A stretch of DNA of 61,930 nucleotides from a virus (IMGVR_UViG_3300020045_006659:1-61930), one strand, 5' to 3'. Counted from the first letter of the stretch, positions 5,697 through 25,203 are shown. Program-made: numbers and translations. The notes: a model not told the origin generated them from the sequence alone.

Positions 5697-6203
5697 CTAC
5701 TTCACCCGAAAGCGAACAGAGCTAGTCGCCTGATTGCCCGCCGCGTCGAATGCCTGCGCCGAGAGCATGTGCCATGCGGTCAGCCGACCAAACTGGTAGG
5801 GCAGGCTCCACGGCGCCGCTGTGACCGTCCCGATGGGCGTCCCGTCGAGACTCCAGACCACCCGCACCACAGCGATATTGTCGGCAACGTCAGCGCGGAG
5901 TAGGGCCGTCCTACTGATGGTGCCGTTGTTACGCGGAGCCGTGATCTGAACCGTGGGTGATTGAACATCTTGGCAAGAAAATGCCACTGCCTCAGAATCT
6001 TTAACGATGCCCGTTTCCACGATGACAGTTGGGAGCATTACGCAGCCGGGAAAGGCTGCTGTAATACTTCCGCTCCAGACTGGTCCTTGCAATACCATCT
6101 CATAGCGCCCTTGCGCGTTGGTCTGGACCATGCCACCAGGGGCGAAAGTGACCGTGGCATTGGGCAGCGGGACTTGCAGCAGCAGCCCCAAAATCCAAAT
6201 CAT
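5697..6203 (-). CDS. Ig-like (Big) domain protein
   Basis: D..SPTV.ITAP.N....S, ADN..V.RV...LDG, AP and H.L.A.AFDAAGN motifs. Confidence 0.8.
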   Translation of the reverse strand: MIWILGLLLQVPLPNATVTFAPGGMVQTNAQGRYEMVLQGPVWSGSITAAFPGCVMLPTVIVETGIVKDSEAVAFSCQDVQSPTVQITAPRNNGTISRTALLRADVADNIAVVRVVWSLDGTPIGTVTAAPWSLPYQFGRLTAWHMLSAQAFDAAGNQATSSVRFRVK

Positions 6204-7888
6204 CGGAGCACCACCGCGCCGGAAATCTTAACGCTGCCGCTAGTTGTGCCGCCACTATTCCCAGGAGTGCTTGCATACCACCGAAGATTAGTAGCCTTAA
6301 TGCCAGTAATTAAATCTCCGTAAGGCTTAACCGCAGACCCATCGGGAATATCATCCGTCCCGCAGGTATATGCTGCAATTGGAGCACTACAAGTAACTGC
6401 TCCCGAGGCGGGCTCTACTCCGTCGTAGGCGTTGTCGAGTAAATCAACCAAGCCGTAATTTCCGCCCTCGCCTTGATTGTCGTGGAATTCCCACCACTTC
6501 ATCCCAACAATGGGCTTGTTCCCGGTGGCTGTAACTGTCGCAGCCACTTCTAACGCAATATCTGCGTCATAAATTGCTGCTCTGCCCACTTGGGTTGTTG
6601 AGCACCATACGCAGGGAGAAGGATTCGGAACCAGCCCCATGGCTGAATCAGGATTAGATTTCAAAATCTCATAACTCACAATTGGATGATCCCCAAGTGC
6701 ATTTGCTGTGTAATCCAATTGCTGTTGCACCGTGGACGATGACTGCGACTGCTGTAGCTGTACCTGTGTGATATCCATGTATTCGCCCATGGCCTGCAAA
6801 ATTTGGGATCGCGTAACGCCATCTGATCCAAGAGTAGCGGGGCCAAAGACTAACACTCCAGGGGCGTACATCGTCAAAGCAGTTTTGTAAACACTGGCGT
6901 ACTGCACCGACATGGCATACAGATAATCGTTCAAATCTGTTTGCATCGCAGCGGTTTCCCCTGCGAGTGTCGTACCATTCCCGATCCATGAGTTTCTGCC
7001 ATCTTCATCTAAAAACCCTGTTCCAGATCCCCACCCGCCGCCTGTACTGCCAAACGTTGTATAGGTGGAGCCCCAAGCAGTATTTAAAGATCCGATTGTT
7101 CCGTACCGACCAGTAAGAAATGTAACCAGTTGGGATTTTGCATACACCGTAGTATCTGTATAAGTAACACTAAAAGCCGAGTTCGAGGCTTGGGTAGGCG
7201 CGGTAATCAGTGCAATCCACCCTAAGTGCGGGTGAGGAGAAAATGGATTAAGATCCGGCCCGGGACCAAATCCGAATAAATCATCCCGATCATCCGTTGT
7301 AGTGCCTAAATACCAAGCCGAGGAAAACATACCCGTTAGCCCGGTTACGTTGGCCGCGAGATTACCATTAACGTAAGAAGAGAAGGCAGAGTCAAACACG
7401 TCTGGAAAGATGCGACTCCCTGGGTTGTAGTACGTAGGGTTGCAGCCATTGTAGATATTTTTAACTGGACGCACTCCCACCCCGTAGCGGTTCGACATCG
7501 AATCCCGACTCGCATTAATGATCCCCATGGAGGGAATCTTGTTCCATGTTCGGTAATCAGAGTATTCGGAAACAGAGTTGAAATTCCACGCCTTCAGCCG
7601 CGCCGCCTGTGCTGTCCCCCATGTGTCCATGTCTCCGTACTTGGTAATGATTCGCTCGTAGTACGTCTGAGCTGCGCCTGTGTTGCTGAAACTAACGTTA
7701 GTGTGGAACACCCCGAGCATATAGTACGTGTTGCCAAGCGGCGTACACATATGCCAACGTACCCCGGTTTTTTCTGTATAGAAGTGAGTCTGCGCGCCTC
7801 CGGAGCATGGCTGTGTGGTATCGCCACCGTAGGTGTCGAGGCCAAAAGCAAAAGAAGCCAGAAGCGAAAGAAGTGTTAGGATTTTCAT
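6200..7888 (-). CDS. Secreted-type glycoside hydrolase (GH50/beta-agarase-like TIM barrel), possible depolymerase
   Basis: Signal peptide; F.TEK...RW...TP.G, RLKAW.FNS, PDVFD..F and YLG..TDD patterns. Confidence 0.65.
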   Translation of the reverse strand: MKILTLLSLLASFAFGLDTYGGDTTQPCSGGAQTHFYTEKTGVRWHMCTPLGNTYYMLGVFHTNVSFSNTGAAQTYYERIITKYGDMDTWGTAQAARLKAWNFNSVSEYSDYRTWNKIPSMGIINASRDSMSNRYGVGVRPVKNIYNGCNPTYYNPGSRIFPDVFDSAFSSYVNGNLAANVTGLTGMFSSAWYLGTTTDDRDDLFGFGPGPDLNPFSPHPHLGWIALITAPTQASNSAFSVTYTDTTVYAKSQLVTFLTGRYGTIGSLNTAWGSTYTTFGSTGGGWGSGTGFLDEDGRNSWIGNGTTLAGETAAMQTDLNDYLYAMSVQYASVYKTALTMYAPGVLVFGPATLGSDGVTRSQILQAMGEYMDITQVQLQQSQSSSTVQQQLDYTANALGDHPIVSYEILKSNPDSAMGLVPNPSPCVWCSTTQVGRAAIYDADIALEVAATVTATGNKPIVGMKWWEFHDNQGEGGNYGLVDLLDNAYDGVEPASGAVTCSAPIAAYTCGTDDIPDGSAVKPYGDLITGIKATNLRWYASTPGNSGGTTSGSVKISGAVVLR

Positions 7889-8628
7889 TTGAAATTACCC
7901 ACCGTAGCGCCCCAACTGTATGTGCTAGGATCATTGTCAGACATCGCAGCCGTAATGCCTGTTTGAGCACTTCCGAATTGCCGGTCTTCGCACATCATGT
8001 CAGCGTTCCCGGACGCCGCCGAACGGCCCCGTTCCGTGCCAGCAGATCCTCCAATATTGCCAACCGAAAACGGTACTGAACCATCAAGGGTTGAGCAAAA
8101 GATCGTTAGCCCTGCTGCCGAGGTGTTAAAGGATGTGCTTGTAATAGAATTCGCACCAGGACCAGCTGTATCTGTCACTTGAGAATCAAAACTTGCCGCT
8201 GCTCCAGTATGGGAGTAATGCAGCACTGTCATGGACTGAAATGTGGTAGACGAGGTTGGTGTTACCGTGAATGTGATAGATCCAGAACAAGTGCTCAGAA
8301 CGTAAGCCATCTGGAAATAGGCCACCCCAACCCACACCGTTCCGGTCAATTCCGTGAACGTATCGCCACAGCTATTGGAAAACGTTGGGGAGCTTGTAAT
8401 CACGCCACGCCACGCCACGACCGCAAAATCTCCCGCACTCAGAGTTAGCGCTGGACTAGTAATGGATGCAAGAGAGCTAGCATTGACGGCAACATAAGTA
8501 TAGTCAACAAACGTGTAGGTAGAAGCTCCTGAGCTGCCAGTAGAAAACAACATTTGAGTTGTTCCTGACTGGCTAAAGCACAGAGGAGCCAACAGACACA
8601 AAACAAAACTTAACAATACTCGTTTCAT
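7885..8628 (-). CDS. Ser/Thr-rich beta protein with signal peptide (appendage-like)
   Basis: N-terminus MKRVLLSFVLCLLAPLCFSQ; S/T/G-rich beta composition. Confidence 0.6.
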   Translation of the reverse strand: MKRVLLSFVLCLLAPLCFSQSGTTQMLFSTGSSGASTYTFVDYTYVAVNASSLASITSPALTLSAGDFAVVAWRGVITSSPTFSNSCGDTFTELTGTVWVGVAYFQMAYVLSTCSGSITFTVTPTSSTTFQSMTVLHYSHTGAAASFDSQVTDTAGPGANSITSTSFNTSAAGLTIFCSTLDGSVPFSVGNIGGSAGTERGRSAASGNADMMCEDRQFGSAQTGITAAMSDNDPSTYSWGATVGNFK

Positions 8629-8629
8629 C

Positions 8630-9775
8630 TTAGGTAAGCCCCACTCCGTTGATGATCCACCGTGTACTAGTAACCTTGCAAGCTGTCGCTACGCCATTCT
8701 CCGCGAGTGTCCGAGATCCCGTTGTGCCTGCTCCAGCCAAAACTAGGGTGTCGCTGGTAATTGCAATGGTCACAGTATTTTGATCGTTGATAAATGTGAT
8801 GCACGTCCCCACGACATAGGCCACGTTGGCATTTGAGTCAATCGTGAACGTCCTGGCATTGTCATCCGTCGTCGGATGGTAGATCATCTTTCCAGCGTCT
8901 CCCAAGACCGTTGTGTAGGCCGCTGATTGAGAATTCTGTGTGAGTGGCACATAAGCGCATGTCCCAACAGCCCCGGCACTAATAGCCGTTACCACAGTTG
9001 GAGCCGTGCAGCTTGTCGTGGTGATATTCAGATCCGCGCTGACGACTGCGCCCCATGATGGATTACCAGCAGCGTTTCCGTGCGCAACTGTAGTCGTCGT
9101 CCCTTGATTAGCAAACTGCGCACTCGCCAATGTCAGGTTTGACCATGTCCAACTAGAGACATTAGCCGTCGGGGCCGGGAACAGCATCACCTGATTCGCC
9201 GCAGGTACGGCATTGGGAGACACCAGCCGTACGCTGGTAGTCATCGTCGTCGGCGCGCCCCAGCCGAAAACATTCGCGCCAACAGCCGGCGCTGTGCCTT
9301 GACCTAGATCAATGGCGCCCGCAACGGAACCACCCACTCCGCTGGAGACCGTACCGGGAGTCGAAATATTCCCGCTGGCGTCCATGGTAGCGGTTGCTGC
9401 TGGCGTCTGAACGGCCTTAGCACCACCCCCGGTCATAAGTGCGGTTGAGGTTAAGGTTCCCGCAGCCGTTGCACAAGTCGCACAAGCGATAGTACCCGTA
9501 TCCGTGAAAGTACCTCCGGTAATTGGCGATGTAGTCGCTACGGAGGTGACGGTTCCGGCCCCGCCGCCGCCTGTCATCGCCGTCCATGTGTTCGTAGCTG
9601 AACAATAGTATGGGCCTACCGTGGCCGACGTTTTGAAGTACACATCGCCTGTGTTCGGGTTACAGGTCGCAGGGAGCGAGGAAGCATACACAATCCGTCG
9701 CGCCGTCGAAGAAAACTGAGCGTGTGCGGGAATAGAGCAAATTACAAATAAGATAGCGAGTGATAGTTTTCGCAT
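8630..9775 (-). CDS. Tail fibre-like protein with signal peptide
   Basis: GGGAGTVTSVAT, QNSQSAAYTTVL.DAGK and C-terminal RTLA.NG.AT..K....W.I.G.GLT fibre-tip pattern. Confidence 0.7.
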   Translation of the reverse strand: MRKLSLAILFVICSIPAHAQFSSTARRIVYASSLPATCNPNTGDVYFKTSATVGPYYCSATNTWTAMTGGGGAGTVTSVATTSPITGGTFTDTGTIACATCATAAGTLTSTALMTGGGAKAVQTPAATATMDASGNISTPGTVSSGVGGSVAGAIDLGQGTAPAVGANVFGWGAPTTMTTSVRLVSPNAVPAANQVMLFPAPTANVSSWTWSNLTLASAQFANQGTTTTVAHGNAAGNPSWGAVVSADLNITTTSCTAPTVVTAISAGAVGTCAYVPLTQNSQSAAYTTVLGDAGKMIYHPTTDDNARTFTIDSNANVAYVVGTCITFINDQNTVTIAITSDTLVLAGAGTTGSRTLAENGVATACKVTSTRWIINGVGLT

Positions 9776-9789
9776 GGGCTGGCCCTCCG

Positions 9790-10077
9790 TCAGCGCGTAA
9801 AGTAAATGAACTGGACCCCGTTGCCGTTGGTTGCCCCGTCAATCCAGATTTCGTAAAGGTCATAGCCGTTGATATCGGAAACAGGCCACGTCACGGCAGA
9901 ATCTCCGACAAGCATAGACAGCCCGCTTGTCGCAGATACCGTTGAGCCACCGATATAAACGGCATTGGTATTGGCCGCAAGCGGCTGGAAGGTGATCCAT
10001 GCCGCGATTTTGTGAACCGAAGAAAGACGCTCTCGCGTACCAGAAGCGGCCACTGTTTTATTGCCATCGTAAATCAT
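9790..10077 (-). CDS. Small virion-type beta protein
   Basis: RBS aaggag; NT..VYIGG..V....G..L..GD motif. Confidence 0.6.
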   Translation of the reverse strand: MIYDGNKTVAASGTRERLSSVHKIAAWITFQPLAANTNAVYIGGSTVSATSGLSMLVGDSAVTWPVSDINGYDLYEIWIDGATNGNGVQFIYFTR

Positions 10078-10189
10078 TCTAGAAATCTCCTTCGGGAAGT
10101 ACTTGCCATCGTGGATTCTCTGCTCTGCGGCGAGCCTCTCGTTTTCGCCAAAATTCACGCGCTTTTTGTGGGTCTTTGTATGGCATGGG

Positions 10190-12088
10190 CTAGGACTCTT
10201 TTACAACGAGCCTCGGTGGTTCTTGTCCCGATGCTTTTCTTCCGGCTGAACTGGTATTCATACCTAGATTCATGTTCTGTTGCATCTGCAATCGTTCCGG
10301 AATTGTCCCAGCAGGTGCTTCTCCAACATTCGGAATGCTTAGCTTTTCTAGGAGCGTCCAAATGTCACACCAGCCAGCCCGTGCCAGTTGAAGGTACTTC
10401 ATCTGCTCGTCAATCTGCGAAGACACAAGCTGCGATCCAGGGGCAACATGGTAGGTGAACTGCCGCATGACTTCCCGCGCACGCTCGTAGCGTGGCAGTG
10501 GGCCACGCATCAGTGCATCGGCAGTTGGGATACCGCGCTCATCGTAGTCGTTGTTATGCACAAACGCCGGGATCATTGACCCTGGGTCAAAATCGAAGTC
10601 CTCAAAGGTCGCCCCGCTTGACCCAAGAATCTGAATGCGCTTCGGTAAGGAATAGAACTGCGCGAAGTTGTAGGCGGTTATCATGCCAAACTCGCGCATG
10701 AACGCTTCGATGGCCCTGGAGCGTCCGCGTACAATCGGCGTCATTGACTCGCCAATTTTCTCAATTGTGCTAGCCGATGGAATCTGTTGGAGCCGCATCA
10801 TCTGGCTCATGTCGCGCACGCCAGAGAGGTTGTCCATGGCGTCTTTGTAGAGTTCGATGGAACGGAACACCGCATCCGGCAACGCAGGCGGGTAGCTGAT
10901 CTGAATGCCCTTCCCCATGGCAGGGTTTTGCTGGAGCTTAAGCCCAGCCTTGCGGGTATCAATCTTATCCATCGCGTGCCGCGACGTGGAGTTCTTGTCT
11001 GCGATCAGATCCGGCCGCGCCAACTTCTCCATGTAGTCTTCGAGGACACGCAAAGACTTATCCAGTGACCGCTGAAGCGGAATGAGATCCCAAAGCGGAG
11101 CCTTGCCAAGCCACGTCCAGGGCCACGGGTCCAGCGACAGCTTGCAATAAGGGAACAGTCCGTGCCAGTAGATCGACGGTCCATCGTAGAGGATTACACT
11201 TTTCGTGAAGACGATACAGCGCTTACGGGGGTAAAGGAGATCCCCCTTCTTGACGATGTAAGACCAGTTGTTAGCAGGCTCACCGGCTTCCGTTTGCTCT
11301 CCCATGACGCGCGGAATGTTGCTCTCATGGCGGCGGTCATCATCCACGTACATCGTGTACACGTCTGCCGTGGGGATGCGCGGCATGTCCCGCGATGGTT
11401 GGTCCTCCCCGAACAAACGGCGGCGGAACGGCGAAGACATCTGTTCCAGAATCTTGCCGGCGCGGGTATTTTTCAGTGACGTTACATTGCCGTCCCGATC
11501 AGGGGATACGCGATCCGCCTTGTGGCCATAGCGGGAGCGGAGATAGTTGATTGTCCGCATCCTGCGGGCAACCACCCCCATCGCATCCTGGACGGTGTGC
11601 ATGGAGTTCGGGCGGATCGGAAGTACGTCGCGCGGATCTTCGGAGCTGATATCCAGGTCATCCCATGATTCGTTGTAGAACGGGTGAACCCAGCCAGTTC
11701 CGCCAACTAGGTAATACTTTACGGCCTCGCTGAACTTCATGTCGATGCCGCGCTGCGTGTACCAAGCGCTTGATAGCTTCCCGAAGATTTCCGCGCTTTG
11801 CTCGAAGCGCTTATTGTAGGTCTTGAACTCCCAGAACGGCTTTACATCCGTCAGCAGGGCCGCTTGATCGTTGGCAATCTTTCCGAAGTGGTTGCTGGAT
11901 GTGGTTGATAGGGTTGAAGATTTAAGGGTTTCGTTCTTCCCCATGATAGTCTTGATCGACGTGTCAATCTTGTCGAATCCATCTTGGGACCGCACATACC
12001 CATCCCCTTCCTCGACGGCTTCCAGGCACCATCCAAGCGTGCGGAACTCACTGTCGTTCGGGTAAGCCGGGATGGGAGGGGCGCTCAT
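10190..12088 (-). CDS. Portal protein (podovirus/P22-like)
   Basis: 632 aa; Y.L.GGTGW, DPR.V.P, LYDGPS.YWHG.FPY, LIPLQ..L, .LSGV.D and .FY...KRIQI.G portal patterns. Confidence 0.85.
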   Translation of the reverse strand: MSAPPIPAYPNDSEFRTLGWCLEAVEEGDGYVRSQDGFDKIDTSIKTIMGKNETLKSSTLSTTSSNHFGKIANDQAALLTDVKPFWEFKTYNKRFEQSAEIFGKLSSAWYTQRGIDMKFSEAVKYYLVGGTGWVHPFYNESWDDLDISSEDPRDVLPIRPNSMHTVQDAMGVVARRMRTINYLRSRYGHKADRVSPDRDGNVTSLKNTRAGKILEQMSSPFRRRLFGEDQPSRDMPRIPTADVYTMYVDDDRRHESNIPRVMGEQTEAGEPANNWSYIVKKGDLLYPRKRCIVFTKSVILYDGPSIYWHGLFPYCKLSLDPWPWTWLGKAPLWDLIPLQRSLDKSLRVLEDYMEKLARPDLIADKNSTSRHAMDKIDTRKAGLKLQQNPAMGKGIQISYPPALPDAVFRSIELYKDAMDNLSGVRDMSQMMRLQQIPSASTIEKIGESMTPIVRGRSRAIEAFMREFGMITAYNFAQFYSLPKRIQILGSSGATFEDFDFDPGSMIPAFVHNNDYDERGIPTADALMRGPLPRYERAREVMRQFTYHVAPGSQLVSSQIDEQMKYLQLARAGWCDIWTLLEKLSIPNVGEAPAGTIPERLQMQQNMNLGMNTSSAGRKASGQEPPRLVVKES

Positions 12089-12486
12089 GCTCTGCCGTGG
12101 CCTCTCTCTGGTAGGCGTCCATCGCCATCGAAGCTCTTGCCGGAGCCGCGATCAAACCAGCGGCGCTCACTCAGTACCTTGGCCTGCTTCTCAAACTTGG
12201 CGTAGTCCTGATCGGTACGCAATTCCCGGCGTACATAGCCCTGTTGCTGGTAGCGCACGGGCATAGGCGCTGTGCTCAGACCGGGGTACTTGATGTCGCC
12301 GGTGCCGGGATGCTCCCAAACAACAGCAGTTTCGTCCTTGGCAAAGGCTACCGCGCCTTGGCGCTTGGGAAGGAAGACCATCGTGGAATGGTCTTTGTGC
12401 TCCGGGCACGGTAGCCAGTCGAAGCCGTCTTGTGACTTGGCCTCAAAGAAATGTCCTCGTGGGCACTCAAAGTCGTGAATCGGCAT
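12085..12486 (-). CDS. FmdB-like zinc-ribbon protein
   Basis: MPIHDFECPRGHFFE...PCPEH. Confidence 0.6.
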   Translation of the reverse strand: MPIHDFECPRGHFFEAKSQDGFDWLPCPEHKDHSTMVFLPKRQGAVAFAKDETAVVWEHPGTGDIKYPGLSTAPMPVRYQQQGYVRRELRTDQDYAKFEKQAKVLSERRWFDRGSGKSFDGDGRLPERGHGRA

Positions 12487-12489
12487 ATT

Positions 12490-18487: not shown

Positions 18488-18975
18488 GCTGGCCCCTGCC
18501 ATAATGCAGATAGCGTTGAATTGGAAGGGTTTACATAGCTTGTTCCGGCCCCGCCATCTTTGACGATCAGGAGGCGGCAGTTCTCTCCGCCCTTGGCGGT
18601 CACCTGCCAGGTCTGGTGAAACATCACCATGGCGTCCGCCGCTGAGCTAGTTTGCGCGGTATGGCTTGACTGAACCGTGGACCCTACGGCCAGCGTGAGC
18701 GTGAATATCTGCCCGTTGTCGCTTATGATGTTGAGCGCCACCGCAGCCGTCAGAAGCCAGTTTCCCGGCCTTGTGAGCGTCACCTGAACCCCGATGCCAC
18801 TTGCGGGCTTAGTGGACCCATCCGGCACCGTGACGGACGTTCCAGCCCCCTTCCCGAACACGCTGGCGGGTCCATAGTTACTTCGGATGTCGTACAGGTG
18901 GTCGATGATCTGCCGATTCGCGGTATCCTGCTCGGCATTGCCTGTCGGCTTCGGTCTGAATTGGCGGTCAATCAT
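18484..18975 (-). CDS. Putative tail accessory protein
   Basis: Short N-terminal helix plus beta-sandwich, in the tail cluster. Confidence 0.55.
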   Translation of the reverse strand: MIDRQFRPKPTGNAEQDTANRQIIDHLYDIRSNYGPASVFGKGAGTSVTVPDGSTKPASGIGVQVTLTRPGNWLLTAAVALNIISDNGQIFTLTLAVGSTVQSSHTAQTSSAADAMVMFHQTWQVTAKGGENCRLLIVKDGGAGTSYVNPSNSTLSALWQGPA

Positions 18976-19091
18976 TAGCTTCCAGTGCGCTCCAAAGGTT
19001 CATCGTAGGCGATCAGGTCCGGGTCATTCGTAACCGGAACCGGGATACAGGTTTCAGGCGGCGCTGGCGGATCTGGAGGATCGTCTGGCAT
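18975..19091 (-). CDS. 38-aa peptide paralogous to the C-terminus of the upstream gene
   Basis: MPDDPP...LIAYDEPLERTGS; TGATG and TAATG overlaps on both sides. Confidence 0.6.
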   Translation of the reverse strand: MPDDPPDPPAPPETCIPVPVTNDPDLIAYDEPLERTGS

Positions 19092-20905
19092 CAGCTTCCA
19101 TCCCTTTCATTAGGCTCATTGTAAGCGATTAGGCCAAACTCAGTACCTACCGGGAATGTTTCGCAGAACGGCGGGGGTGAAATGGAAATAGTTAATGGAC
19201 AAGGCGCACCTACGCTTGCTGTAAAGCCCAAAGAATCCGTTACGGTTACCGTGTATGAATAAGATCCCGCTACTAGCGGAATCCCACTAATCACGCCCGT
19301 AGCAGAATCCAGCGTGACCCCAGAAGGGAATGCCCCTGAAGTAACTGCATAAGTATATGGTGGCGTGCCTCCCGTAGCAACAATCGTGGCTGAGAAAAAC
19401 TCACCAAGAATTCCGGTATTGGCAACTGGACACGTAATAGCAAGCGTGAGATCAACAAGCGTGACCCCAAGAAGCGCCATGCCCCCAGAGGGGATCCCCC
19501 CTACATCTCGCACATCTTGTACTTGAGCGAAATAGTCTCCATCCGCCACAGCGAACATATCCAAAATAGCAGCGGCACCATTGCGGGCATCATTCGTTAC
19601 TGACCATGCTGGATCTTGAATGAACCCATAATTAGATCGTAATGTAAACCCATTGAGAGCAGTCCATGTAACAGAATCATCGGTCCCATCTGTAGCATTC
19701 GCAGCAAATGCAAACAGATACGTTCCAGCAGGCACTCCGATCAAAGATTCCGTACTGAAAACATCTACCGCTACATCGTCAAACACAGCAACGGAGTAAG
19801 CTGATGGAGCTTGCCCTGTAATAACACGCTCCGCAACGCCAATTGCAGTTGGCTGATAGACAACTCCAGTATACGGACCGGGCAAGGAAGCTCGAACGAT
19901 GAAGGCTTCTCCCGTTGGTGGAAGCACAGCAACAATACAGGTATAAAGCGCTACAACGCATTGGTTGGCTGATGATCCCCCAATAGGGCTGATCCCCTGC
20001 ATGGTGTAAACATTCCCATAATCGTCATACACCGTCGGAGTGACAACATGAGATTGCTGACTCACGCCAATACAAAGAAGCGAATCGACCAAAGGAAGAT
20101 ACGGCATCGTTGCACAAATCGGGCGATTCGTTGCTCCTATGTAATATGGGGCCTCAAACCCTCCTTCATCCCCAGGACTGGAAGTAAAGCCACATCCAGG
20201 GCGCATTTGGTACTGTTCCGTTGTTCCTCCAGGTCTTGAAAGTGGCCTGGAAAATACAGCGGTAATCATTGGAGACTGACCAGCGTATGTTAGGCCAAGA
20301 TCGTTTCCAATACGAGTATTTTCAACTCCTGGTCCAGTCGCGGCTCGATAAAATAGAGCCATGGATTGAGCAGGGGATGATCCGCTTCTGAATACTTCAG
20401 TGTCTCCGCTATATGAAGTGAAGCTGACTGCCCCAAATGATCCCACAGCTCCAGCAAAGGTAATAACCGTTGAATCAGCAAGCGAGTAAGAACTAGTAAA
20501 TGCAGAAAATGGCGGAGTCGATCCTGCCGAGGGGCCAATGAGCATAGCCCACTCTGAAAGTGGTGGAGCATCCCCATCTGGCCATCTAAAATTAGTAACA
20601 ATTTGAGTACGCCACTCGGCAGAAGCGGCGGCATTCTCATGTGTTATAGAAATGGTCGCGTTGTTTTGTGCAATTGCCCACGCATAGGAAACATGGCCAA
20701 AACCACGAGCAGCACAAGTTTGAAGTTCGTAAGTATTTCCATCTGTATCTATGCAAGTGTATCCCCATGGCGGGCCCGATCCAGTTGGAAAAAATGCACA
20801 AATGCCCGATACGATTAAGTCGCCAGCTTGAACTGCAATGGTAGATGTACAACCAAGCCCAAAGGTTATGTCCGCATCGGTATTGATAGGAACGCCGGTT
20901 GCCAC
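19091..20905 (-). CDS. Virion appendage protein with He_PIG/putative Ig domain
   Basis: ATGGTPPYTY.V.SG..P.GVTLD..TG.ISG.P...G.Y..TVTVTDS. Confidence 0.75.
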   Translation of the reverse strand: MATGVPINTDADITFGLGCTSTIAVQAGDLIVSGICAFFPTGSGPPWGYTCIDTDGNTYELQTCAARGFGHVSYAWAIAQNNATISITHENAAASAEWRTQIVTNFRWPDGDAPPLSEWAMLIGPSAGSTPPFSAFTSSYSLADSTVITFAGAVGSFGAVSFTSYSGDTEVFRSGSSPAQSMALFYRAATGPGVENTRIGNDLGLTYAGQSPMITAVFSRPLSRPGGTTEQYQMRPGCGFTSSPGDEGGFEAPYYIGATNRPICATMPYLPLVDSLLCIGVSQQSHVVTPTVYDDYGNVYTMQGISPIGGSSANQCVVALYTCIVAVLPPTGEAFIVRASLPGPYTGVVYQPTAIGVAERVITGQAPSAYSVAVFDDVAVDVFSTESLIGVPAGTYLFAFAANATDGTDDSVTWTALNGFTLRSNYGFIQDPAWSVTNDARNGAAAILDMFAVADGDYFAQVQDVRDVGGIPSGGMALLGVTLVDLTLAITCPVANTGILGEFFSATIVATGGTPPYTYAVTSGAFPSGVTLDSATGVISGIPLVAGSYSYTVTVTDSLGFTASVGAPCPLTISISPPPFCETFPVGTEFGLIAYNEPNERDGS

Positions 20906-23824
20906 TTAGATCCTTGCTCCGTTAATTCTCGACAAATCACCATAGGGCTGCTTGGCGATGTACGGTCCCACCGCTCCCCATGGTTTTACGTGTACCGTAA
21001 GGTCTTTCTGAAACACACGAAATGGCGCGTCTGAAGTAAGCGAATAAGTAACAGATCGAGCCTTCATCGCTTGGACTACAAAGTATCCTCGATCATAGAC
21101 TCCAGCCGTTGTAGCTTTCGTATAGGAAAACGGCCCAGAGGGATTACCGTTGGCGGTCACCGCTAGCGTTACTGTATCCGTGCTGGAAATTGGCAAGTAA
21201 ATGTCGCGGTGCGAAAACCAGCCTGGGAAGTCATGTGTTGTATCCTGCGTTGTCCATGTTCTGACAAGTTCAGGCGCTGGCTCAAATATCCACTCCACGC
21301 CTTCGATGCGCCAGAACTCTGCATCTTGCGGCGCAAAACGCACCAGATGGCTGATGAACGGCGTATTGAACGAGTACGCTATAGTTTGTTCGCGCGGATG
21401 AAGAATAGTAGTAGGAGTAAAAGAATGAGAAGTACCATCCTCATCAAGCACCTCCACAGTGCGCGCCACATTGAGCGTGTCGGCTCTTAACTTGAAGCCC
21501 TGAATGAACTTCGCGCCCGGATAACCAAGATCATCGAAGCCCGTGTAGCGGAGCGACGAAAGCTCTGGTTTGGGCAACCATGACGGACCCCAGAAGTAAA
21601 AGATCGACTGACTGCCCGCTACGTTGGTCCAAGTGATGTCGAGTCCTAGGTTGTAACCGTATTGCCCTTGTCCATCGTTGATGTCTAGCAACGCGCGGCG
21701 GCGTCCAGTATAGTTGAGTCCGTTCGATGTGACGTTTGTGAAGTAGCTGAAGTTATCCATGCCTACTTTCACTTCCATCTCATCGCACTGTGTATCCAAG
21801 TCTAGTTCGATGTCTCCCCACAAAGCACGCGGGCGCGGGTCTTTCTTGTCAAATGATTGCGTTCGGATGTGGCACTCAATCGGGTTATCGAAGTCCACAT
21901 AGGTTTTGTAGGTGGACACGTACCCATCCGAGGTCCCCATTAGCATTTGGCTGAAGTTCAGGGATTGCGTCGTGGAGTCCTGAGAAACTTCATAGTAGTG
22001 GCACGATACCGGATGCTCGTAGGTGTCCCGGCTGATCCATCCCTTTGACTCGAAATTATAGACCAACGTGCGCCGAACAGCGCCACGATCCACGTAATCG
22101 AAGTACAGGAAGCCATCTCCGTAAGCCAGCCGCATCTCGTTTGGCTGCGTAAAGTCCGGTGGCTCAAACGAGGTATCAGTCAAGCCGTCGATGACAGGGA
22201 ATGCCGTGATCTCAGCGCCGTTGCTTTCGCGCGGGAATAGCGGATACAAGTCCTCATCCGTCATGGAGATCGGAGGGCCACCCGCCGTCATGTAGATGCC
22301 ATCCTTGGCAATGAACGCGATCCCCAAAGGCGTCGTACACAATCCCCACTTGGCGAACAACCCCTTGGAGTTTGGAACCTCAATCGCAATGAAATCGCTG
22401 ATCTGTCCCAGCGTAGGGTACATCCTGAATAGGCGATTGGTCGAGAAGACAAACGGCTCACCGCCATACATGCAGCCGTTCATCAGGGTTTCCGAACCGC
22501 TGGTGATCGTGAGCGTATTAGCGGCGGGATGGCTTTCGGGATGGTTTCCCTTAGTCCAGTAAATGTTCCCACTATTTAGGGCATCGCCACACGCGAAGAC
22601 GAAAATTCCAGTTTCCCCACCGCCGTATGGACCCCACATGCAAGGCATCGGCTTATGCCAAATCTCAGGGCTATTGATCTGGAAATCACCACCAGCTAAT
22701 CCAGCCGGCGGATCTTCGAGCAGGGTTACTGTTGTGGAGGAAGTCGGAGAATTGTAGAACTTAAATAGCGTTCCACCCACGCTAATCTGCGTTCCCAGCG
22801 GGTAGTAGGGGGTATTTGTCGTGGCATCGTAAGGTCGGAGCGTGTCACCAGACACCCAAGTAAACGTTGCCCCTAGGCCCGTTCCGAGAGCCGTCAATGT
22901 GCAAGTCCCGTTCTTGCTGTTATCGAGCGTTATGAAGGGCTGCGGATTCTCTCCGTACTCCGTTTGCTGGTTTGATGCAATCGCTAGGTCATTGAAGCTA
23001 TCGGTCATGGAGTTCCCTGCACTGTTGTCCATGGTGCCGATGTAAGTCCACGATGAAATAGACCCGCCAAAGCGAAACACGTCAATCCAGGAAACCTGGG
23101 GATCGGGATGCGCCGATGGTAGCGTTACAACGATGTTTGTTGGCGGCGTGGCGGCCCCAGGTGCGCTCGACGGCGAAAGCCCATTCACTGTCCGCACGGC
23201 AGGACCAAGATCAGACAGAGCGCCCGTATTCAGCTTTGAACCAGCCCGAGCACGGAACGCATAGACGTAGGGAGTGTTGGTTTCTCCGATGTCGGGACCA
23301 TCCGTATTTGCCGCGCCAAAAGCAATCGTCGGAGCCACGTTCGGAGGCGCAATCCCGATCTGATAGGCGTTGATGGTTTCCGATGAAGTCTTGAGGGTCT
23401 TGGATGAATCCCCCACTAGCACCCATGGCCGAGGCGTAAAATCACTCGGAACGGTTACAAATGTCATCGGATTGCCACTGAATCCACTTGCCACCGTATA
23501 GGCGAAGTTCCCGATGCCCGTATCCTGATCGGCACCAAAAAGGCTCGTCCCCACCCCCGCTAGCCGCGCATGGGTTGAGTAGGCCGTAGGATAGTCCGAG
23601 GGGCTTGGAACCGGGTCATTAAACCCGTACAGCGAATGGACCTTCGCCCCGGCATTCAATTGCTGGCTGATCTGATATTGCCCTTGCCGCCCCTGAATGC
23701 GTCCGTCTCCGTATGGGCGAGTATTCTCAAGAAGTCTCGCGTGCCCGGGAGCCATGCGATCCACCGGAGCCGCGACGTTGATGCGGTAATCGAAGAGGAT
23801 TGTTTCGCGCTGATACTGGTCCAT
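20906..23824 (-). CDS. Putative tail nozzle / tail tubular protein B-like (beta-propeller)
   Basis: 972 aa, downstream of adaptors; beta-rich with IYWT, FVFS..R and FI..DGIY blades. Confidence 0.65.
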   Translation of the reverse strand: MDQYQRETILFDYRINVAAPVDRMAPGHARLLENTRPYGDGRIQGRQGQYQISQQLNAGAKVHSLYGFNDPVPSPSDYPTAYSTHARLAGVGTSLFGADQDTGIGNFAYTVASGFSGNPMTFVTVPSDFTPRPWVLVGDSSKTLKTSSETINAYQIGIAPPNVAPTIAFGAANTDGPDIGETNTPYVYAFRARAGSKLNTGALSDLGPAVRTVNGLSPSSAPGAATPPTNIVVTLPSAHPDPQVSWIDVFRFGGSISSWTYIGTMDNSAGNSMTDSFNDLAIASNQQTEYGENPQPFITLDNSKNGTCTLTALGTGLGATFTWVSGDTLRPYDATTNTPYYPLGTQISVGGTLFKFYNSPTSSTTVTLLEDPPAGLAGGDFQINSPEIWHKPMPCMWGPYGGGETGIFVFACGDALNSGNIYWTKGNHPESHPAANTLTITSGSETLMNGCMYGGEPFVFSTNRLFRMYPTLGQISDFIAIEVPNSKGLFAKWGLCTTPLGIAFIAKDGIYMTAGGPPISMTDEDLYPLFPRESNGAEITAFPVIDGLTDTSFEPPDFTQPNEMRLAYGDGFLYFDYVDRGAVRRTLVYNFESKGWISRDTYEHPVSCHYYEVSQDSTTQSLNFSQMLMGTSDGYVSTYKTYVDFDNPIECHIRTQSFDKKDPRPRALWGDIELDLDTQCDEMEVKVGMDNFSYFTNVTSNGLNYTGRRRALLDINDGQGQYGYNLGLDITWTNVAGSQSIFYFWGPSWLPKPELSSLRYTGFDDLGYPGAKFIQGFKLRADTLNVARTVEVLDEDGTSHSFTPTTILHPREQTIAYSFNTPFISHLVRFAPQDAEFWRIEGVEWIFEPAPELVRTWTTQDTTHDFPGWFSHRDIYLPISSTDTVTLAVTANGNPSGPFSYTKATTAGVYDRGYFVVQAMKARSVTYSLTSDAPFRVFQKDLTVHVKPWGAVGPYIAKQPYGDLSRINGARI

Positions 23825-25203
23825 TAGTTCACCGAACGCGCCACTTCGATCCAGTTACTTGAGTCGCATACTAGGGTTGCGGTGTCATCCGCAGTCGTCA
23901 CGAAGTTCCCTGCTAACTTAAGATTATTTCCATCGGTCAGAGTCAACACGCCATCGAAGATCAGCGTTACCGTTAGCCCAGCCGTTGTCGAATCGCAGGT
24001 GTTCATCGTCGTGATATTCGTGGTCCCCGTGATGTGGAATACATTGCCAACCCCGAGAGTCATTGTCGCCGCTGAAGCCACATTAGACCCGTTCACCCCT
24101 GCTGGCATACAGGATGTTCCGGCACTGTTGATGCAGTCCAGGCGATTCGTGGTGGTGTTGGCAAAGACGTTCAACGTACCGGATGCCGCCGATGCAGGAG
24201 TGCTGATCTTGGTCCATTGCGTAAATTCCGTCATGTACAAGCTGCGGAGTTTTAGATCGCGGAATGTGCCGCCTGTGCCGCTGTTCACTTCCACCACGCC
24301 CGAAGCATTGCGTGCAAAACAGGCATCCGCCGTACCGCCAGGGCACGCGCTGGTAGCCGCATTGTTGTAGATGTTAGCTCCACTCAACGTCCAGTAGTTT
24401 GTAGGTGTACTCCAAATCCAGCCCGAAGCCTGCCCCGAATCCGCCGTAAGCACTGTCCCGTTGCTCCCAACCGCTAACCGGATCGCATTCGTTCCATTGT
24501 GGGCAATCAAATCGCCTTTGGTTGTCTGCGGCGAGAGGGCATTAAAGCCAAGCGTCTGCGTGATCTGCCCCGTTCCCCCTCGTGCAATCGTGATCGGAAG
24601 CGTAAGCGCTACCGTTCCAGCGGTATTCACAAGCGGAGAGGTAAATGTCAGGGCTGACTGCTTGGCATTGAACGCACTCCAATCGGTCGTGGAAAGAAGC
24701 CCGCGATTGGATGCGCTGGCAGTTGGAAGATTGAATGTGTGCGTCGTTCCTGAACTGGAAATGGTAAAGTTCGTCCCGCTGGTGCCCGTGGCAAACGTCT
24801 GCGTTGCGCCCGTCAAAGCGTTCAGAGAAGTGATGCCGCCGCTATTGGCCGCGATGGTAACGTTCATGGAAAACGGAGCTGGGATCGTGCCACCCGACAA
24901 AGTAACAGTGTAATTCCCCTGATCGGCAAAGAAGGAAAACAAAGCCGGGGATGTGGCGCTCGCAGAGTTTGCGGTAAACGGATTCGCCAGAACCGTACCA
25001 GAATTATCTGAGTAGATCGAAGCAATGCTACCCCCGGAATCCCGCACCGTAACTGTACAAGACGGGTAGCTGGTCTGGAACCTGGGAGTCGCGCTATTGC
25101 CTTGGATTGTTACCGTTCCGCCGCCGCGTTCGCACCATCCCGTATAGGCCCCACGTCCGAAAGCGGTAGTCGCCAAAAATGCCAACAATAGTAATCGTTT
25201 CAT
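23824..25203 (-). CDS. Tail fibre-like protein with signal peptide
   Basis: A.IYSD..G...ANPFTA head-binding-like motif; GITSLN.LTGA.QTF, RGLLS..DW.AFNAKQ and TTKGDLI..NGT..RL.VG.NG.VL.ADS fibre repeats. Confidence 0.8.
   Translation of the reverse strand: MKRLLLLAFLATTAFGRGAYTGWCERGGGTVTIQGNSATPRFQTSYPSCTVTVRDSGGSIASIYSDNSGTVLANPFTANSASATSPALFSFFADQGNYTVTLSGGTIPAPFSMNVTIAANSGGITSLNALTGATQTFATGTSGTNFTISSSGTTHTFNLPTASASNRGLLSTTDWSAFNAKQSALTFTSPLVNTAGTVALTLPITIARGGTGQITQTLGFNALSPQTTKGDLIAHNGTNAIRLAVGSNGTVLTADSGQASGWIWSTPTNYWTLSGANIYNNAATSACPGGTADACFARNASGVVEVNSGTGGTFRDLKLRSLYMTEFTQWTKISTPASAASGTLNVFANTTTNRLDCINSAGTSCMPAGVNGSNVASAATMTLGVGNVFHITGTTNITTMNTCDSTTAGLTVTLIFDGVLTLTDGNNLKLAGNFVTTADDTATLVCDSSNWIEVARSVN

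What the first reader, a model, noticed from the sequence alone, without database searches (positions are those of the whole stretch)
5697..25203. Tail fibre/spike-like proteins carry Sec-type signal peptides and paired cysteines
Seen: 23824..25203 (MKRLLLLAFLATTAFG), 8630..9775 (MRKLSLAILFVICSIPAHA-Q), 7885..8628, 6200..7888 and more weakly 5697..6203 begin with basic-hydrophobic-cleavage-site leaders. Two of them contain clear tail-fibre repeats, and 23824..25203 has 8 Cys in apparent pairs. Established: tailed-phage fibres normally assemble in the cytoplasm. Inference: these receptor-binding parts are exported, oxidatively folded in the periplasm and joined to virions at or after lysis, which would be a split-compartment assembly route. 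Alternatively they modify the host surface.
Basis: partly seen in the sequence, partly recalled or inferred. Interest (0 to 1): 0.72.

Follow-up and report, generated by a model that had tools for sequence, protein, structure and literature searches.

The report
Phage tail fibres with secretion signals
A soil phage, like many uncultured relatives, puts ordinary bacterial export signals and paired cysteines on its host-recognition fibres, so these parts very probably fold outside the cytoplasm where the rest of the virus particle is built, which is not how tailed phages are thought to assemble.

Summary
The window is a whole 61.9-kb podophage genome of the Acidobacteriota-phage type. Four of the five named ORFs start with Sec-type leaders; 5697..6203 does not, and 7885..8628 has a rival start at Met26. 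They are not one kind of protein. Two are tail fibres (23824..25203, 8630..9775). One is a secreted-type glycoside hydrolase (6200..7888). One is a small protein of a mainly viral family (7885..8628). The 459-aa fibre gene sits between adaptor and nozzle-position genes. Its N-terminal domain recurs in 197 IMG/VR contigs.

The key result is that leader presence tracks a cysteine pair in that domain. In 74 non-redundant IMG/VR loci the counts were 54/4/3/13, and in the protein collection 40/1/3/9. The state changes at least 7 times on the adaptor tree. A second fibre domain shows the same rule. Export and periplasmic disulfide folding are therefore well supported.

Joining to virions is inferred, not shown. 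Indirect support: the cultured phage Tunturi_1 shares the trait, and leader-bearing fibre proteins of Cellulophaga phage phi10:1 are recorded as MS/MS-detected structural proteins. This scan noted the same pattern on other DNA. I found no paper on it.

The parts
23824..25203 (-). 459-aa tail fibre precursor. Its start overlaps the stop of the adaptor gene, and its stop overlaps the start of the next large tail gene.
25156..25203 (-). Sec-type leader, residues 1-16, with predicted cleavage AFG|R.
   Evidence: The leader is conserved in kind but not in letters in homologues.
24844..25155 (-). N-terminal beta-sandwich domain, residues 17-120, holding Cys24 and Cys49. It is the candidate particle-binding anchor.
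   Evidence: AF2 model pLDDT 85. Fold hits.
24394..24843 (-). Central fibre-repeat shaft, residues about 121-270 (motifs ..LS..DW..FN.K.. and ..LSP.TTKGD..).
   Evidence: 471 of 600 pattern matches in IMG/VR encode a relative. BFVD hits include tail fibre proteins.
23827..24096 (-). C-terminal tip domain, residues 370-459, holding Cys403 and Cys446.
   Evidence: VIA-align Z 10.1, rmsd 2.6, 84 aligned to residues 611-701 of the phage Solidus gp83 tailspike.
8630..9775 (-). 381-aa second fibre precursor: leader residues 1-19 (9719..9775, AHA|Q), a Cys-bearing N-module, a Gly/Thr-rich shaft, and a tip domain at residues 269-381 (8633..8971).
7885..8628 (-). 247-aa protein of a mainly viral beta-sandwich family. 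Probable leader at residues 1-21 (8566..8628). Rival start ATG at 8553 (Met26).
6200..7888 (-). 562-aa secreted-type glycoside hydrolase (agarase/GH42-like TIM barrel) with leader residues 1-16 (7841..7888). It is accessory cargo.
   Evidence: Absent from 5 of 5 related genomes.
5697..6203 (-). 168-aa ORF with a Big_7 Ig-like domain. It has no leader and overlaps the hydrolase stop (ATGA). It corresponds to the C-terminal domains of hydrolase homologues.
25200..26531 (-). 443-aa head-to-tail adaptor, without a leader.
   Evidence: Pfam SU10_adaptor 3e-13. Found in 50 of 80 related loci at 90% coverage or more.
20906..23824 (-). 972-aa conserved tail protein in the nozzle position, without a leader. 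No family match was found.
26754..27986 (-). 410-aa conventional tail fibre without a leader.
   Evidence: Residues 57-126 match the N-termini of several PHROGs annotated 'tail fiber protein', best 1.5e-11.

Best explanation
The late operon of this podophage encodes proteins that the host Sec system exports. Signal peptidase I removes a 16-21-residue leader, and the mature proteins form disulfide bonds in the periplasm.

Two of them (459 aa and 381 aa) are trimeric-type tail fibres, each with a conserved N-terminal module behind the leader and a variable distal part. They would accumulate in the periplasm while heads and tails are built in the cytoplasm. They would dock onto fibre-less particles when lysis merges the two compartments, the 459-aa fibre through its N-terminal beta-sandwich domain. 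The hydrolase (562 aa) and probably the 247-aa protein would be released as free, disulfide-stabilised extracellular proteins.

Shown here:
- Leaders are present, conserved and non-random.
- The leader co-varies with the cysteine pair across repeated gains and losses.
- The fibre gene is embedded in the tail module.

Inferred: actual export, cleavage, disulfide formation and docking at lysis.

My odds: export about 0.9; disulfides about 0.8; the 459-aa fibre ends up on virions about 0.55-0.6; the 381-aa fibre about 0.4.
For: (1) The leaders are real and not chance. Four of the five named ORFs are flagged, against a background of 9 of 324 window ORFs and 12 of 2327 shuffled ORFs. Shine-Dalgarno motifs sit before the leader ATGs of the two fibres, and no usable start lies downstream.

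(2) The leader is conserved. 73 of 120 best homologues of the 459-aa protein carry one. Tunturi_1 gp12, from a cultured podophage whose portal is 23% identical, has the same domain behind MKKFIQLALLFILPAAASA|Q.

(3) Leader and Cys pair co-vary.
- IMG/VR, 74 non-redundant loci: leader+CC 54, leader without CC 4, no leader+CC 3, no leader without CC 13 (Fisher 1e-8).
- Protein collection, 53 homologues: 40/1/3/9.
- Complete leader-less forms start at the mature N-terminus (MQKxQGW[VA]..).

(4) The changes are independent. On a tree of the adaptor, the leader state needs at least 7 changes. Among independent pairs the Cys pair goes the same way in about 5 and the opposite way in about 0.

(5) A second domain shows the same rule. 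In the tip of the 381-aa fibre, the three Cys columns are all Cys in 14 leader-bearing and 5 unflagged homologues, and V/A/I in ordinary leader-less fibres (85 of 90). Cys density is 1.90 against 0.29 per 100 aa.

(6) Structural context. The N-domain gene lies on the same strand within the coat, fibre, adaptor and nozzle module in nearly all 80 loci, and the protein's length varies from about 190 to 2156 aa.

(7) The N-domain fold search over 48,161 chains lists Pam1 tail machine chain A (Z 7.8), P22 gp9N in situ (Z 6.7, 6.5, 6.2) and Sf6 gp14N (Z 6.2).

(8) Precedent. Cellulophaga phage phi10:1 gp091-gp094 all begin with Sec-type leaders. The record annotates them as structural, tail fiber or pectate lyase proteins 'based on experimental MS/MS proteomics analysis'.
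Against: - No experiment on this phage or on Tunturi_1 shows export, cleavage, disulfides or presence in virions.
- The phage has a conventional leader-less fibre (26754..27986) and a Cys-rich leader-less tail protein (19091..20905, 12 Cys). Exported fibres are therefore not obviously required, and cysteine richness is not exclusive to the leader proteins.
- The fold matches of the N-domain are in the range (Z 6-8) that generic beta-sandwiches also reach. Foldseek found nothing at E <= 0.001 for the domain alone.
- The trait is not host-wide. Siphovirus Tunturi_4, of the same host genus, has 0 leaders in 29 CDS.
- The hydrolase family is mainly bacterial and the gene is absent from 5 of 5 related phages. 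That fits accessory cargo rather than a virion part.
- The phi10:1 proteins have only 0-2 Cys. MS/MS detection in purified virions does not exclude co-purifying protein.
- My leader calls come from a home-made rule, not SignalP. It mis-scored some evident leaders (L097, L154, P0020, P0148).
Confidence: 0.5

Rival explanations
1. The proteins are exported but are never part of the particle. They are made late, fold with disulfides in the periplasm, and are set free at lysis as soluble polysaccharide-binding and polysaccharide-cutting proteins. They would loosen the slime or capsule around the burst cell, or mask receptors on debris and neighbours so that progeny are not lost. The conserved N-terminal domains would then serve oligomerisation or envelope binding, not virion docking.
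For: - The hydrolase is a free-enzyme type with bacterial secreted relatives and is variable cargo.
- A conventional leader-less fibre exists.
- The block 5697..9775 lies at the far end of the operon, after the portal gene.
- The 381-aa fibre lacks the usual N-terminal anchor (MANKKISELTE.. type) that leader-less fibres with the same tip carry.
Against: - The 459-aa gene is wedged between the adaptor and nozzle-position genes with overlapping stops and starts.
- Its N-domain is kept at the mature N-terminus in both leader-bearing and leader-less forms while distal parts vary. That is the usual mark of a virion anchor.
- The phi10:1 record reports leader-bearing fibre proteins in virion proteomics.
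Confidence: 0.3
2. Lysogenic-conversion or host-surface cargo. The leader proteins would be moron-like genes expressed from a prophage to alter the host envelope or exclude other phages, independently of virion production.
For: - The hydrolase is present only in this genome among six compared.
- GC is slightly lower over 6001..8000: 0.51 against about 0.54-0.56 nearby.
- The genome carries ERF and YqaJ recombination genes and a glycosyltransferase cluster that could modify surface sugars.
Against: - No promoter-like or terminator-like sites beyond the shuffle expectation lie in 5300..12300: 5 against 5.4, and 7 against 6.5.
- The genes are packed head to tail on the late strand.
- I saw no integrase or repressor in the scans that I ran.
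- The 459-aa gene lies inside the tail module in nearly all of 80 relatives.
Confidence: 0.08
3. The leaders are uncleaved signal anchors. The hydrophobic N-termini would tether the fibres to the inner membrane, with the body in the periplasm, until lysis in the manner of SAR endolysins. Alternatively they would stay on the mature protein as part of the structure.
For: Cleavage is only predicted. AF2 models the leader as a helix, residues 2-12. Sec-dependent signal-anchor-release endolysins are known (passages of review PMC6116005).
Against: - The leaders have short h-regions followed by small -3/-1 residues, as in cleaved signals.
- Leader-less homologues start exactly at the predicted +1 position, often with the Met that follows the cleavage site in leader-bearing forms.
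- Leader letters drift freely while the mature domain is conserved.
Confidence: 0.07
4. Annotation artefact. The true starts would lie downstream, and the leader-like stretches would be untranslated spacer or chance.
For: For 7885..8628 only: the collection's gene call starts at Met26 and a better-spaced AGGA precedes that ATG.
Against: - Chance rate is about 0.5% in shuffled ORFs.
- The leaders are conserved as leaders in dozens of homologues.
- For the 459-aa and 381-aa genes the next in-frame starts lie inside conserved domains.
- The co-variation with cysteines has no explanation under this reading.
Confidence: 0.03

Closest known systems
Tailspikes of P22 (gp9) and Sf6 (gp14), with their N-terminal particle-binding domain docked between adaptor and tail hub
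   Same: - An N-terminal beta-sandwich domain of about 100 aa is followed by a variable receptor-binding body.
- The gene lies next to the adaptor and nozzle-position genes.
- The N-domain model aligns over 79-81 residues to P22 gp9N and Sf6 gp14N (Z 6.2-6.7).
- From my own knowledge, not from a call: P22 heads lacking spikes become infectious when purified spikes are added in vitro, so late docking is physically feasible.
   Different: - Those spikes have no leader and fold in the cytoplasm.
- The fold match is weak and shared with generic beta-sandwiches.
- The body here is a fibre with repeats and a small tip, not a beta-helix.
Cellulophaga phage phi10:1 gp091-gp094 (NC_021802)
   Same: Consecutive tail-module proteins annotated as tail fiber, pectate lyase or structural each begin with a classic Sec-type leader. 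The record annotates them from experimental MS/MS proteomics.
   Different: - It is a siphovirus of a marine Bacteroidota host.
- The proteins have 0-2 Cys, so disulfide folding is not the obvious reason there.
- I did not test sequence relationship to the window's proteins.
- I could not read the source paper: PMC3732932 is not held.
Tunturiibacter phage Tunturi_1 gp12-gp17 (PP887698), a cultured Acidobacteriota podophage
   Same: - gp12 has the same N-domain (36% identity to residues 22-108) behind a Sec-type leader and follows a tail gene.
- gp13, gp14, gp16 and gp17 also start with leaders, and the four large ones are Cys-rich: gp12, gp13, gp14 and gp17 have 20, 10, 21 and 32 Cys, while the 149-aa gp16 has 2.
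   Different: - The proteins are much larger (675-1190 aa) and sit in one block between the head genes and the lysis genes.
- The paper reports no virion proteomics and does not mention signal peptides (passages seen).
Filamentous-phage receptor-binding protein G3p (M13)
   Same: It is a virion receptor-binding protein made as a preprotein whose signal sequence engages SecY (abstract of PMC8310372, seen in the listing). That it forms disulfide bonds in the periplasm is my own knowledge.
   Different: G3p stays membrane-anchored by a C-terminal hydrophobic segment and is built into a particle that is extruded through the envelope without lysis. Here the phage is tailed, and the 459-aa and 381-aa sequences end without a hydrophobic segment.
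Sec-exported phage lysis proteins (fOg44 Lys44 endolysin, SAR endolysins, T4 RI)
   Same: These are late phage proteins that use the host Sec system and wait outside the cytoplasm until lysis (passages of review PMC6116005).
   Different: They are lysis effectors or regulators, not receptor-binding or structural proteins. That review mentions signal peptides only for such proteins.

Membership tests
Sec-type (signal peptidase I) signal peptide | Basic n-region, hydrophobic h-region of about 7-15 residues, and a c-region with small residues at -3/-1 | tested here: met
   A rule-based score flags 23824..25203, 8630..9775, 7885..8628 and 6200..7888. It does not flag 5697..6203. Background rates are 9 of 324 window ORFs and 12 of 2327 shuffled ORFs. 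SignalP was not available.
Sec-type (signal peptidase I) signal peptide | Sits at the true translational start | tested here: met
   For the 459-aa and 381-aa genes, GGAG/GGAGG lies 8-9 nt upstream and there is no usable later start. For the 562-aa gene, a partial GGTGGG motif lies upstream, the next in-frame ATG is at codon 47, and full-length homologue P0251 has the same leader followed by the ..YGG start. For 7885..8628 the test is inconclusive because of Met26.
Sec-type (signal peptidase I) signal peptide | Not a lipoprotein signal (no Cys at +1) | tested here: met
   The +1 residues are R, Q, G and L.
Sec-type (signal peptidase I) signal peptide | Actually directs export and is cleaved | not testable with these tools
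   This needs PhoA fusions or N-terminal proteomics. Indirect support: leader-less homologues start at the predicted +1 position and lack the Cys pair.
Podophage tail fibre or tailspike with an N-terminal particle-binding domain (P22 gp9N / Sf6 gp14N type) | Conserved N-terminal domain with variable distal parts | tested here: met
   The N-domain is found in 197 IMG/VR contigs. Host proteins range from about 190 to 2156 aa.
Podophage tail fibre or tailspike with an N-terminal particle-binding domain (P22 gp9N / Sf6 gp14N type) | Gene lies within the adaptor and nozzle part of the morphogenesis module | tested here: met
   (same strand, next to homologues of 26754..27986 or 25200..26531 in nearly all of 80 loci).
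Podophage tail fibre or tailspike with an N-terminal particle-binding domain (P22 gp9N / Sf6 gp14N type) | Fold of the particle-binding domain | tested here: inconclusive
   Pam1 7eeq_A Z 7.8. P22 8eb7_0 Z 6.7, 8tvr_A Z 6.5 and 2vnl_A Z 6.2. Sf6 7sg7_A Z 6.2. All sit among generic beta-sandwiches of equal Z. Foldseek found nothing at E <= 0.001.
Podophage tail fibre or tailspike with an N-terminal particle-binding domain (P22 gp9N / Sf6 gp14N type) | Protein is present on the virion and binds the adaptor or nozzle | not testable with these tools
   This needs virion proteomics or cryo-EM.
Phage tail-fibre repeat and tip modules | Sequence homology of the shaft and tip to fibres of other phages | tested here: met
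   459 aa: tblastn hits to annotated minor tail and long tail fibre proteins. 471 of 600 IMG/VR pattern matches encode a relative. 305 BFVD matches at E <= 0.001. 381 aa: the tip is 59% identical to the C-terminus of an 845-aa leader-less fibre of podophage MW202483, and the search returned 5646 proteins at E <= 0.001.
Glycoside hydrolase, agarase/GH42-like TIM barrel (for 6200..7888) | TIM-barrel fold and family-level sequence match | tested here: inconclusive
   ESM Atlas structure rows give TM 0.63-0.69 to clusters named beta-agarase / Glyco_hydro_42. Most are under the tool's bar for naming a family. There is no Pfam, PHROG, NCBIfam or PDB sequence match. 884 homologues were found at E <= 0.001.
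Glycoside hydrolase, agarase/GH42-like TIM barrel (for 6200..7888) | Catalytic residues and activity | not tested
   No catalytic-site analysis was done.
Moron / lysogenic-conversion cargo | Own promoter and terminator, and patchy presence among relatives | tested here: inconclusive
   Patchy presence is met for the hydrolase, which is in 0 of 5 relatives. Promoter-like and terminator-like sites are no more frequent than in shuffles.

The most novel reading that the evidence does not exclude
A two-compartment assembly line for a tailed phage. Capsid and tail core are built in the cytoplasm. The receptor-binding fibres are exported by Sec, cleaved, disulfide-bonded and trimerised in the periplasm, and snap onto fibre-less particles only when lysis merges the compartments. 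The route would have been switched on and off at least 6-7 times within one group of roughly 60-65-kb soil podophages, by adding or dropping a leader in front of the same anchor domain. Similar cases in other phage lineages suggest a widespread, overlooked mode of virion maturation.
Probability: 0.5. Interest if true: 0.85.

Novelty: new variant of a known kind. Interest (0 to 1): 0.72.

Why it matters
Textbook assembly of tailed phages takes place wholly in the cytoplasm, and their receptor-binding proteins are taken to be disulfide-free cytoplasmic products. If fibres mature in the periplasm, several things follow.

- Virion completion would depend on host Sec, signal peptidase and the disulfide machinery.
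- Particles inside unlysed cells would be fibre-less.
- The lysis step would double as the last assembly step.
- Fibres could carry disulfides that stabilise them in harsh soils.

It also affects practice. Gene callers and annotators may trim or misread such leaders, as happened for 7885..8628. Recombinant production of such fibres or depolymerases would need periplasmic expression.

The question is directly testable. Tunturi_1 and its host are in culture, and Cellulophaga phage phi10:1 already has virion MS data.

Tried and rejected
- **Complex prediction.** I sent 26754..27986, the adaptor and the N-domain. The tool gave no answer (score 0.00, controls not run). This is neither support nor counter-evidence.
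- **Family and structure searches.** Pfam, PHROGs and NCBIfam gave no family for the four leader proteins. PDB sequence searches found nothing useful for the 562-aa, 972-aa and 381-aa proteins or for the N-domain profile.
- **Paralogy.** BLASTP of 247 aa against 604 aa and of 381 aa against 459 aa showed no similarity.
- **Relatives of the 247-aa protein.** None were found in IMG/VR with the single protein or with a 3-row alignment. Only 2 homologues exist in the protein collection.
- **Hydrolase and 168-aa ORF joined by a frameshift.** The downstream frame is open for only 8 codons before its ATG, and I saw no slippery run. Left open as 'coupled or split'.
- **The trait as a host-wide need of Acidobacteriota phages.** Rejected: Tunturi_4 has 0 of 29.
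- **The leader-bearing ClpP-like protease (40374..41162) as a phage signal-peptide peptidase tied to this system.** Dropped. It matches CLP_protease and head-maturation models, not S49, and is absent from 5 of 5 relatives.
- **The wider fibre-repeat family.** Among 80 IMG/VR loci found through the central repeat, 0 of 80 carry a leader at the first start and 2 have one at an inner Met. The leader is therefore a trait of a sub-lineage, not of the module.
- **Separate promoters or terminators.** None above the shuffle level.
- **Earlier findings of this scan.** Look-ups by place and by sequence returned nothing.
- **Literature.** Searches found no paper on leader-bearing tail fibres of tailed phages. 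The two hits concern lysis proteins and AimP. PMC3732932 is not held. The identity of Pam1 entry 7EEQ chain A could not be settled from PMC13730344.

Full report
**What the window is.** The window is the whole record: 61,930 bp in one contig, classed as a virus record.
- It encodes a P22-type portal (10190..12088), an SU10-type adaptor (25200..26531), a major head protein (28822..29928) and a weak terminase match (41354..43381).
- The only phage isolates with a recognisable portal are the Tunturiibacter podophages Tunturi_1 and Tunturi_2, at 23% identity. They were isolated on Acidobacteriota from tundra soil (PMC11924767; passages seen).
- One homologue of the 459-aa protein is named in a Candidatus Sulfotelmatobacter MAG.
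- The host is therefore probably an acidobacterium. That is an inference.

**The observation.** All five ORFs are present as described.
- I had no SignalP, so I wrote a rule-based score. It flags four of the five ORFs: 23824..25203, 8630..9775, 7885..8628 and 6200..7888.
- Over all 324 six-frame ORFs of 60 aa or more, it flags 9. These are the four above, a ClpP-like protease, and four short ORFs that overlap larger genes. In ten shuffles of the genome it flags 12 of 2327.
- The two fibre genes have GGAG or GGAGG 8-9 nt before the leader ATG, and their next in-frame starts lie inside conserved domains.
- 5697..6203 fails. It has no basic residue and no cleavage motif. Its Big_7 part matches the C-terminal domains of four homologues of the upstream hydrolase. 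Its hydrophobic start is most simply the first strand of a domain, in an ORF coupled to the hydrolase by an ATGA overlap.
- 7885..8628 is uncertain. The collection and the Atlas hold the protein from Met26, and an AGGA is well placed before that ATG. However, the end of the leader (..FSQS) aligns with the same letters in a 48%-identical homologue.

**What the proteins are.** They are not one class.
- *The 459-aa protein is a tail fibre.*
  - Its shaft motifs hit annotated minor tail and long tail fibre proteins.
  - They recur in at least 471 IMG/VR stretches.
  - The AF2 model (pLDDT 71) has 305 BFVD matches at E <= 0.001, named tail fibre proteins among them.
  - Its last 90 residues align to a domain of the Solidus gp83 tailspike with Z 10.1.
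- *The 381-aa protein ends in a tip domain.* The tip is 59% identical to the C-terminus of an 845-aa fibre of a freshwater podophage, and that fibre has a normal leader-less N-terminus. The search for this protein returned 5646 proteins at E <= 0.001.
- *The 562-aa protein is different.*
  - The ESM Atlas places it with agarase/GH42-like TIM-barrel clusters of bacteria (TM 0.63-0.69).
  - HMMER finds 884 relatives, many with a leader followed directly by the same ..YGG.. start, for example P0251.
  - It is absent from 5 of 5 related complete phage genomes.
- *The 247-aa protein* belongs to small, mostly viral clusters of unknown function.

**Context of the 459-aa gene.** Its start overlaps the adaptor's stop, and its stop overlaps the start of the 972-aa protein in the nozzle position.
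- A profile of its N-terminal domain (residues 17-120, alignment A2) finds 197 IMG/VR contigs. Many of the best 80 are 58-67 kb.
- In nearly all of these 80 loci the gene lies on the same strand within the module coat, 410-aa fibre, adaptor, N-domain protein, nozzle-position protein. It directly follows either the adaptor or the 410-aa fibre homologue.
- The proteins that carry the domain range from about 190 to 2156 aa. A constant N-terminus with a variable body is the usual build of a virion-anchored receptor-binding protein.

**The decisive comparison.** Most homologues carry a leader, and these have Cys at both positions equivalent to Cys24 (..GWC..) and Cys49 (..SYPSC..).
- A minority have no leader. 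They start at the very residue where the mature protein should begin (MQKxQGW[VA]..) and have replaced both cysteines.
- In the protein collection (53 homologues with the domain) the counts are:
  - leader with both Cys: 40
  - leader without: 1
  - no leader with both Cys: 3
  - no leader without: 9
- The three discordant rows are P0020, an evident leader that my rule missed, and P0052 and P0054, whose calls begin at or inside the end of a leader. Two of the nine are N-terminally truncated records.
- In an independent collection (74 non-redundant IMG/VR loci, starts chosen from the DNA) the counts are 54, 4, 3 and 13, Fisher p = 1e-8. The three discordant loci (L097, L154, L163) again have leader-like or unclear N-termini by eye.
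- Relatedness inflates such p-values, so I mapped the state on a tree of the adaptor protein (42 rows). The leader state needs 9 changes on the best tree, and at least 7 are forced by well-supported branches.
  - Among 7 independent contrasts the Cys pair moves the same way in about 5, the other way in about 0, and not at all in 2. The median sign-test p is 0.06, at the limit of what so few pairs can give.
- In several leader-bearing forms a Met directly follows the predicted cleavage site (..ASA|MQR....ISA|MEK..). It matches the start of the leader-less forms. This suggests that leaders are gained or lost by moving the start codon.

**Replication in a second domain.** In the tip domain of the 381-aa fibre (116 homologues), the three Cys columns are all Cys in 14 leader-bearing and 5 unflagged proteins.
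- Of those five, two have evident leaders and three look truncated.
- The columns are V/A/I in ordinary leader-less fibres (85 of 90). Fisher p = 1.5e-7. Cys density is 1.90 against 0.29 per 100 aa.
- Across other ORFs of the 80 loci, leader ORFs have 1.62 Cys per 100 aa against 0.71.
- In the window the mature 459-aa, 381-aa and 247-aa proteins have 8, 8 and 4 Cys, all even numbers. The hydrolase has 7.
- A counter-example is the leader-less 604-aa tail protein, which has 12 Cys.

**Cultured relatives.**
- Tunturi_1 gp12 (1190 aa) follows a tail gene. It starts with MKKFIQLALLFILPAAASA|Q and then has the same N-domain.
- gp13, gp14 (annotated tail spike), gp16 and gp17 (annotated virion structural protein) also begin with leaders. 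The four large proteins gp12, gp13, gp14 and gp17 have 20, 10, 21 and 32 Cys, and the small gp16 has 2. Its adaptor-like and nozzle-like proteins have no leader.
- The trait is not a general need of the host. Siphovirus Tunturi_4, of the same host genus, shows 0 leaders in 29 CDS of its structural side.
- The closest IMG/VR relative (G001, direct terminal repeats) has a protein of at least 596 aa with a leader and the same QF[ST]STAR..C..C module as the 381-aa protein, but a different body.

**Do the exported fibres reach the particle?** This is the open step.
- *For:*
  - the module position and the constant-anchor build described above;
  - the fold search with the N-domain alone (pLDDT 85) over 48,161 chains. 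It lists the Pam1 tail machine chain A (Z 7.8), P22 gp9N in three entries (Z 6.7, 6.5, 6.2) and Sf6 gp14N (Z 6.2), each covering about 80 of 104 residues. The Pan3 tail complex appears as well.
- *Limits:* these Z values equal those of generic CnaB/transthyretin-like sandwiches in the same list, and Foldseek gives nothing at E <= 0.001. I count the fold as a lead only.
  - gp091, gp092, gp093 and gp094 all begin with classic leaders.
  - The GenBank record annotates them as structural protein, virion structural protein, pectate lyase and tail fiber protein, 'based on experimental MS/MS proteomics analysis'.
  - Leader-bearing fibre-like proteins have thus been found in purified virions of a cultured tailed phage.
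  - I could not read the paper. Co-purification is not excluded, and those proteins have only 0-2 Cys.
- *Against a strict need:* the window also encodes a conventional fibre. Residues 57-126 of 26754..27986 match the N-termini of several PHROGs annotated 'tail fiber protein'.

**Most likely mechanism.** The late operon is transcribed as a unit; no extra promoter or terminator signal stands out.
- The leader proteins go through Sec. Signal peptidase I cuts after G16, A19, S21 and G16 (predicted). Disulfides then form in the periplasm.
- The proteins cannot cross the outer membrane by themselves, so they become active only at lysis. The genome has a glucosaminidase-type endolysin at 55159..55776.
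- At that moment the fibres meet fibre-less particles at high local concentration and dock through their N-terminal modules. The hydrolase diffuses as a free enzyme.
- Export is well supported. Docking is inferred.
- The main rival is that all of them act as free proteins.

**Comparison with what is known.**
- Sec-exported phage proteins are known for lysis: fOg44 Lys44, SAR endolysins and T4 RI (review PMC6116005, passages). They are also known for filamentous phages, whose receptor-binding protein G3p is a Sec preprotein (PMC8310372, abstract).
- Five full-text searches found no paper describing leader-bearing fibres or spikes of tailed phages. The library misses most subscription journals, so this is not proof of absence.
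- This scan has noted the same pattern on other DNA: a 110-kb soil phage, Bradyrhizobium-type prophages, a Nitrospira phage and others. Those are unchecked AI notes and not independent evidence.

**Verdict.**
- The split-compartment assembly remains a well-motivated hypothesis at about even odds, and it can be tested directly on cultured phages.

Noticed in passing
window 1..673 and 61258..61930: The two ends are inverted repeats of each other for about 673 nt, with one mismatch at position 129, and there is no direct terminal repeat. Two related complete genomes (G001, G003) are classed as having direct terminal repeats. I saw no protein-primed polymerase or protelomerase in the scans that I ran. 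A real ITR and an assembly artefact are both open.
   Followed up: partly
window 33702..38957 (+): A run of sugar-modifying genes: GT4 glycosyltransferase, Glyco_tranf_2_5-like protein, methyltransferase, GT2, Methyltransf_24 and PLOD-type GT. G001 has the GT4 homologue next to its leader-bearing fibre. The genes could modify host surface polysaccharide or glycosylate phage proteins.
   Followed up: no
window 40374..41162 (-): A ClpP-like protease (Pfam CLP_protease 5.5e-21; PHROG head maturation protease) begins with a leader-like MTLKGYWSIVLLVASVLQA|Q, ahead of the protease domain that starts near residue 30. It lies just downstream of the terminase-like gene and is absent from 5 of 5 relatives.
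   Followed up: partly
window 5697..6203 and 6200..7888 (-): The hydrolase and the 168-aa Big_7 ORF overlap by ATGA. In bacterial homologues (P0286, P0254, P0262, P0273) the two parts form one polypeptide. The downstream frame is open for only 8 codons before its ATG. The piece could be a split gene, a coupled re-initiation product or a sequencing error.
   Followed up: partly
window 19091..20905 (-): A 604-aa tail protein with a C-terminal He_PIG Ig domain has 12 Cys (1.99 per 100 aa) but no leader and no room for one. Its GTG start abuts the stop of the upstream gene.
   Followed up: no
window 12985..15582 (-): An 865-aa Pro/Ala-rich protein without Cys carries a ddrB-like ParB-superfamily domain at residues 481-616. 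It lies among the presumed internal or ejection proteins (624 aa and 223 aa, both also Cys-free).
   Followed up: no
window 3888..4274 (-) and 4655..5386 (+): The 128-aa ORF has an inner Met followed by a leader-like MRVALGLALAFAAMA. The 243-aa ORF has one strong transmembrane segment (mean hydropathy 4.13). Neither has a family match. They are possible lysis or exclusion proteins.
   Followed up: no
P0028, P0035, P0043, P0048, P0053; L086, L100, L109, L135, L144: In these leader-bearing N-domain proteins a Met directly follows the predicted cleavage site (..ASA|MQR....LQA|MEK..). It matches the first residue of leader-less forms. This hints that leaders are gained or lost by start-codon shift, or that both forms could be made from one gene.
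   Followed up: partly
L083 (Tunturi_1 record 39529..39912 and 53744..54946): gp43 (127 aa) and gp78 (400 aa, annotated tail protein, on the early strand) start with lipoprotein-type signals (..LSGC..LTGC).
   Followed up: no
window 1467..2935 (-) and 31641..32966 (+): There is a YqaJ-type exonuclease and ERF annealase pair, and a 441-aa DUF6745 protein (1.5e-35) facing the structural operon.
   Followed up: no
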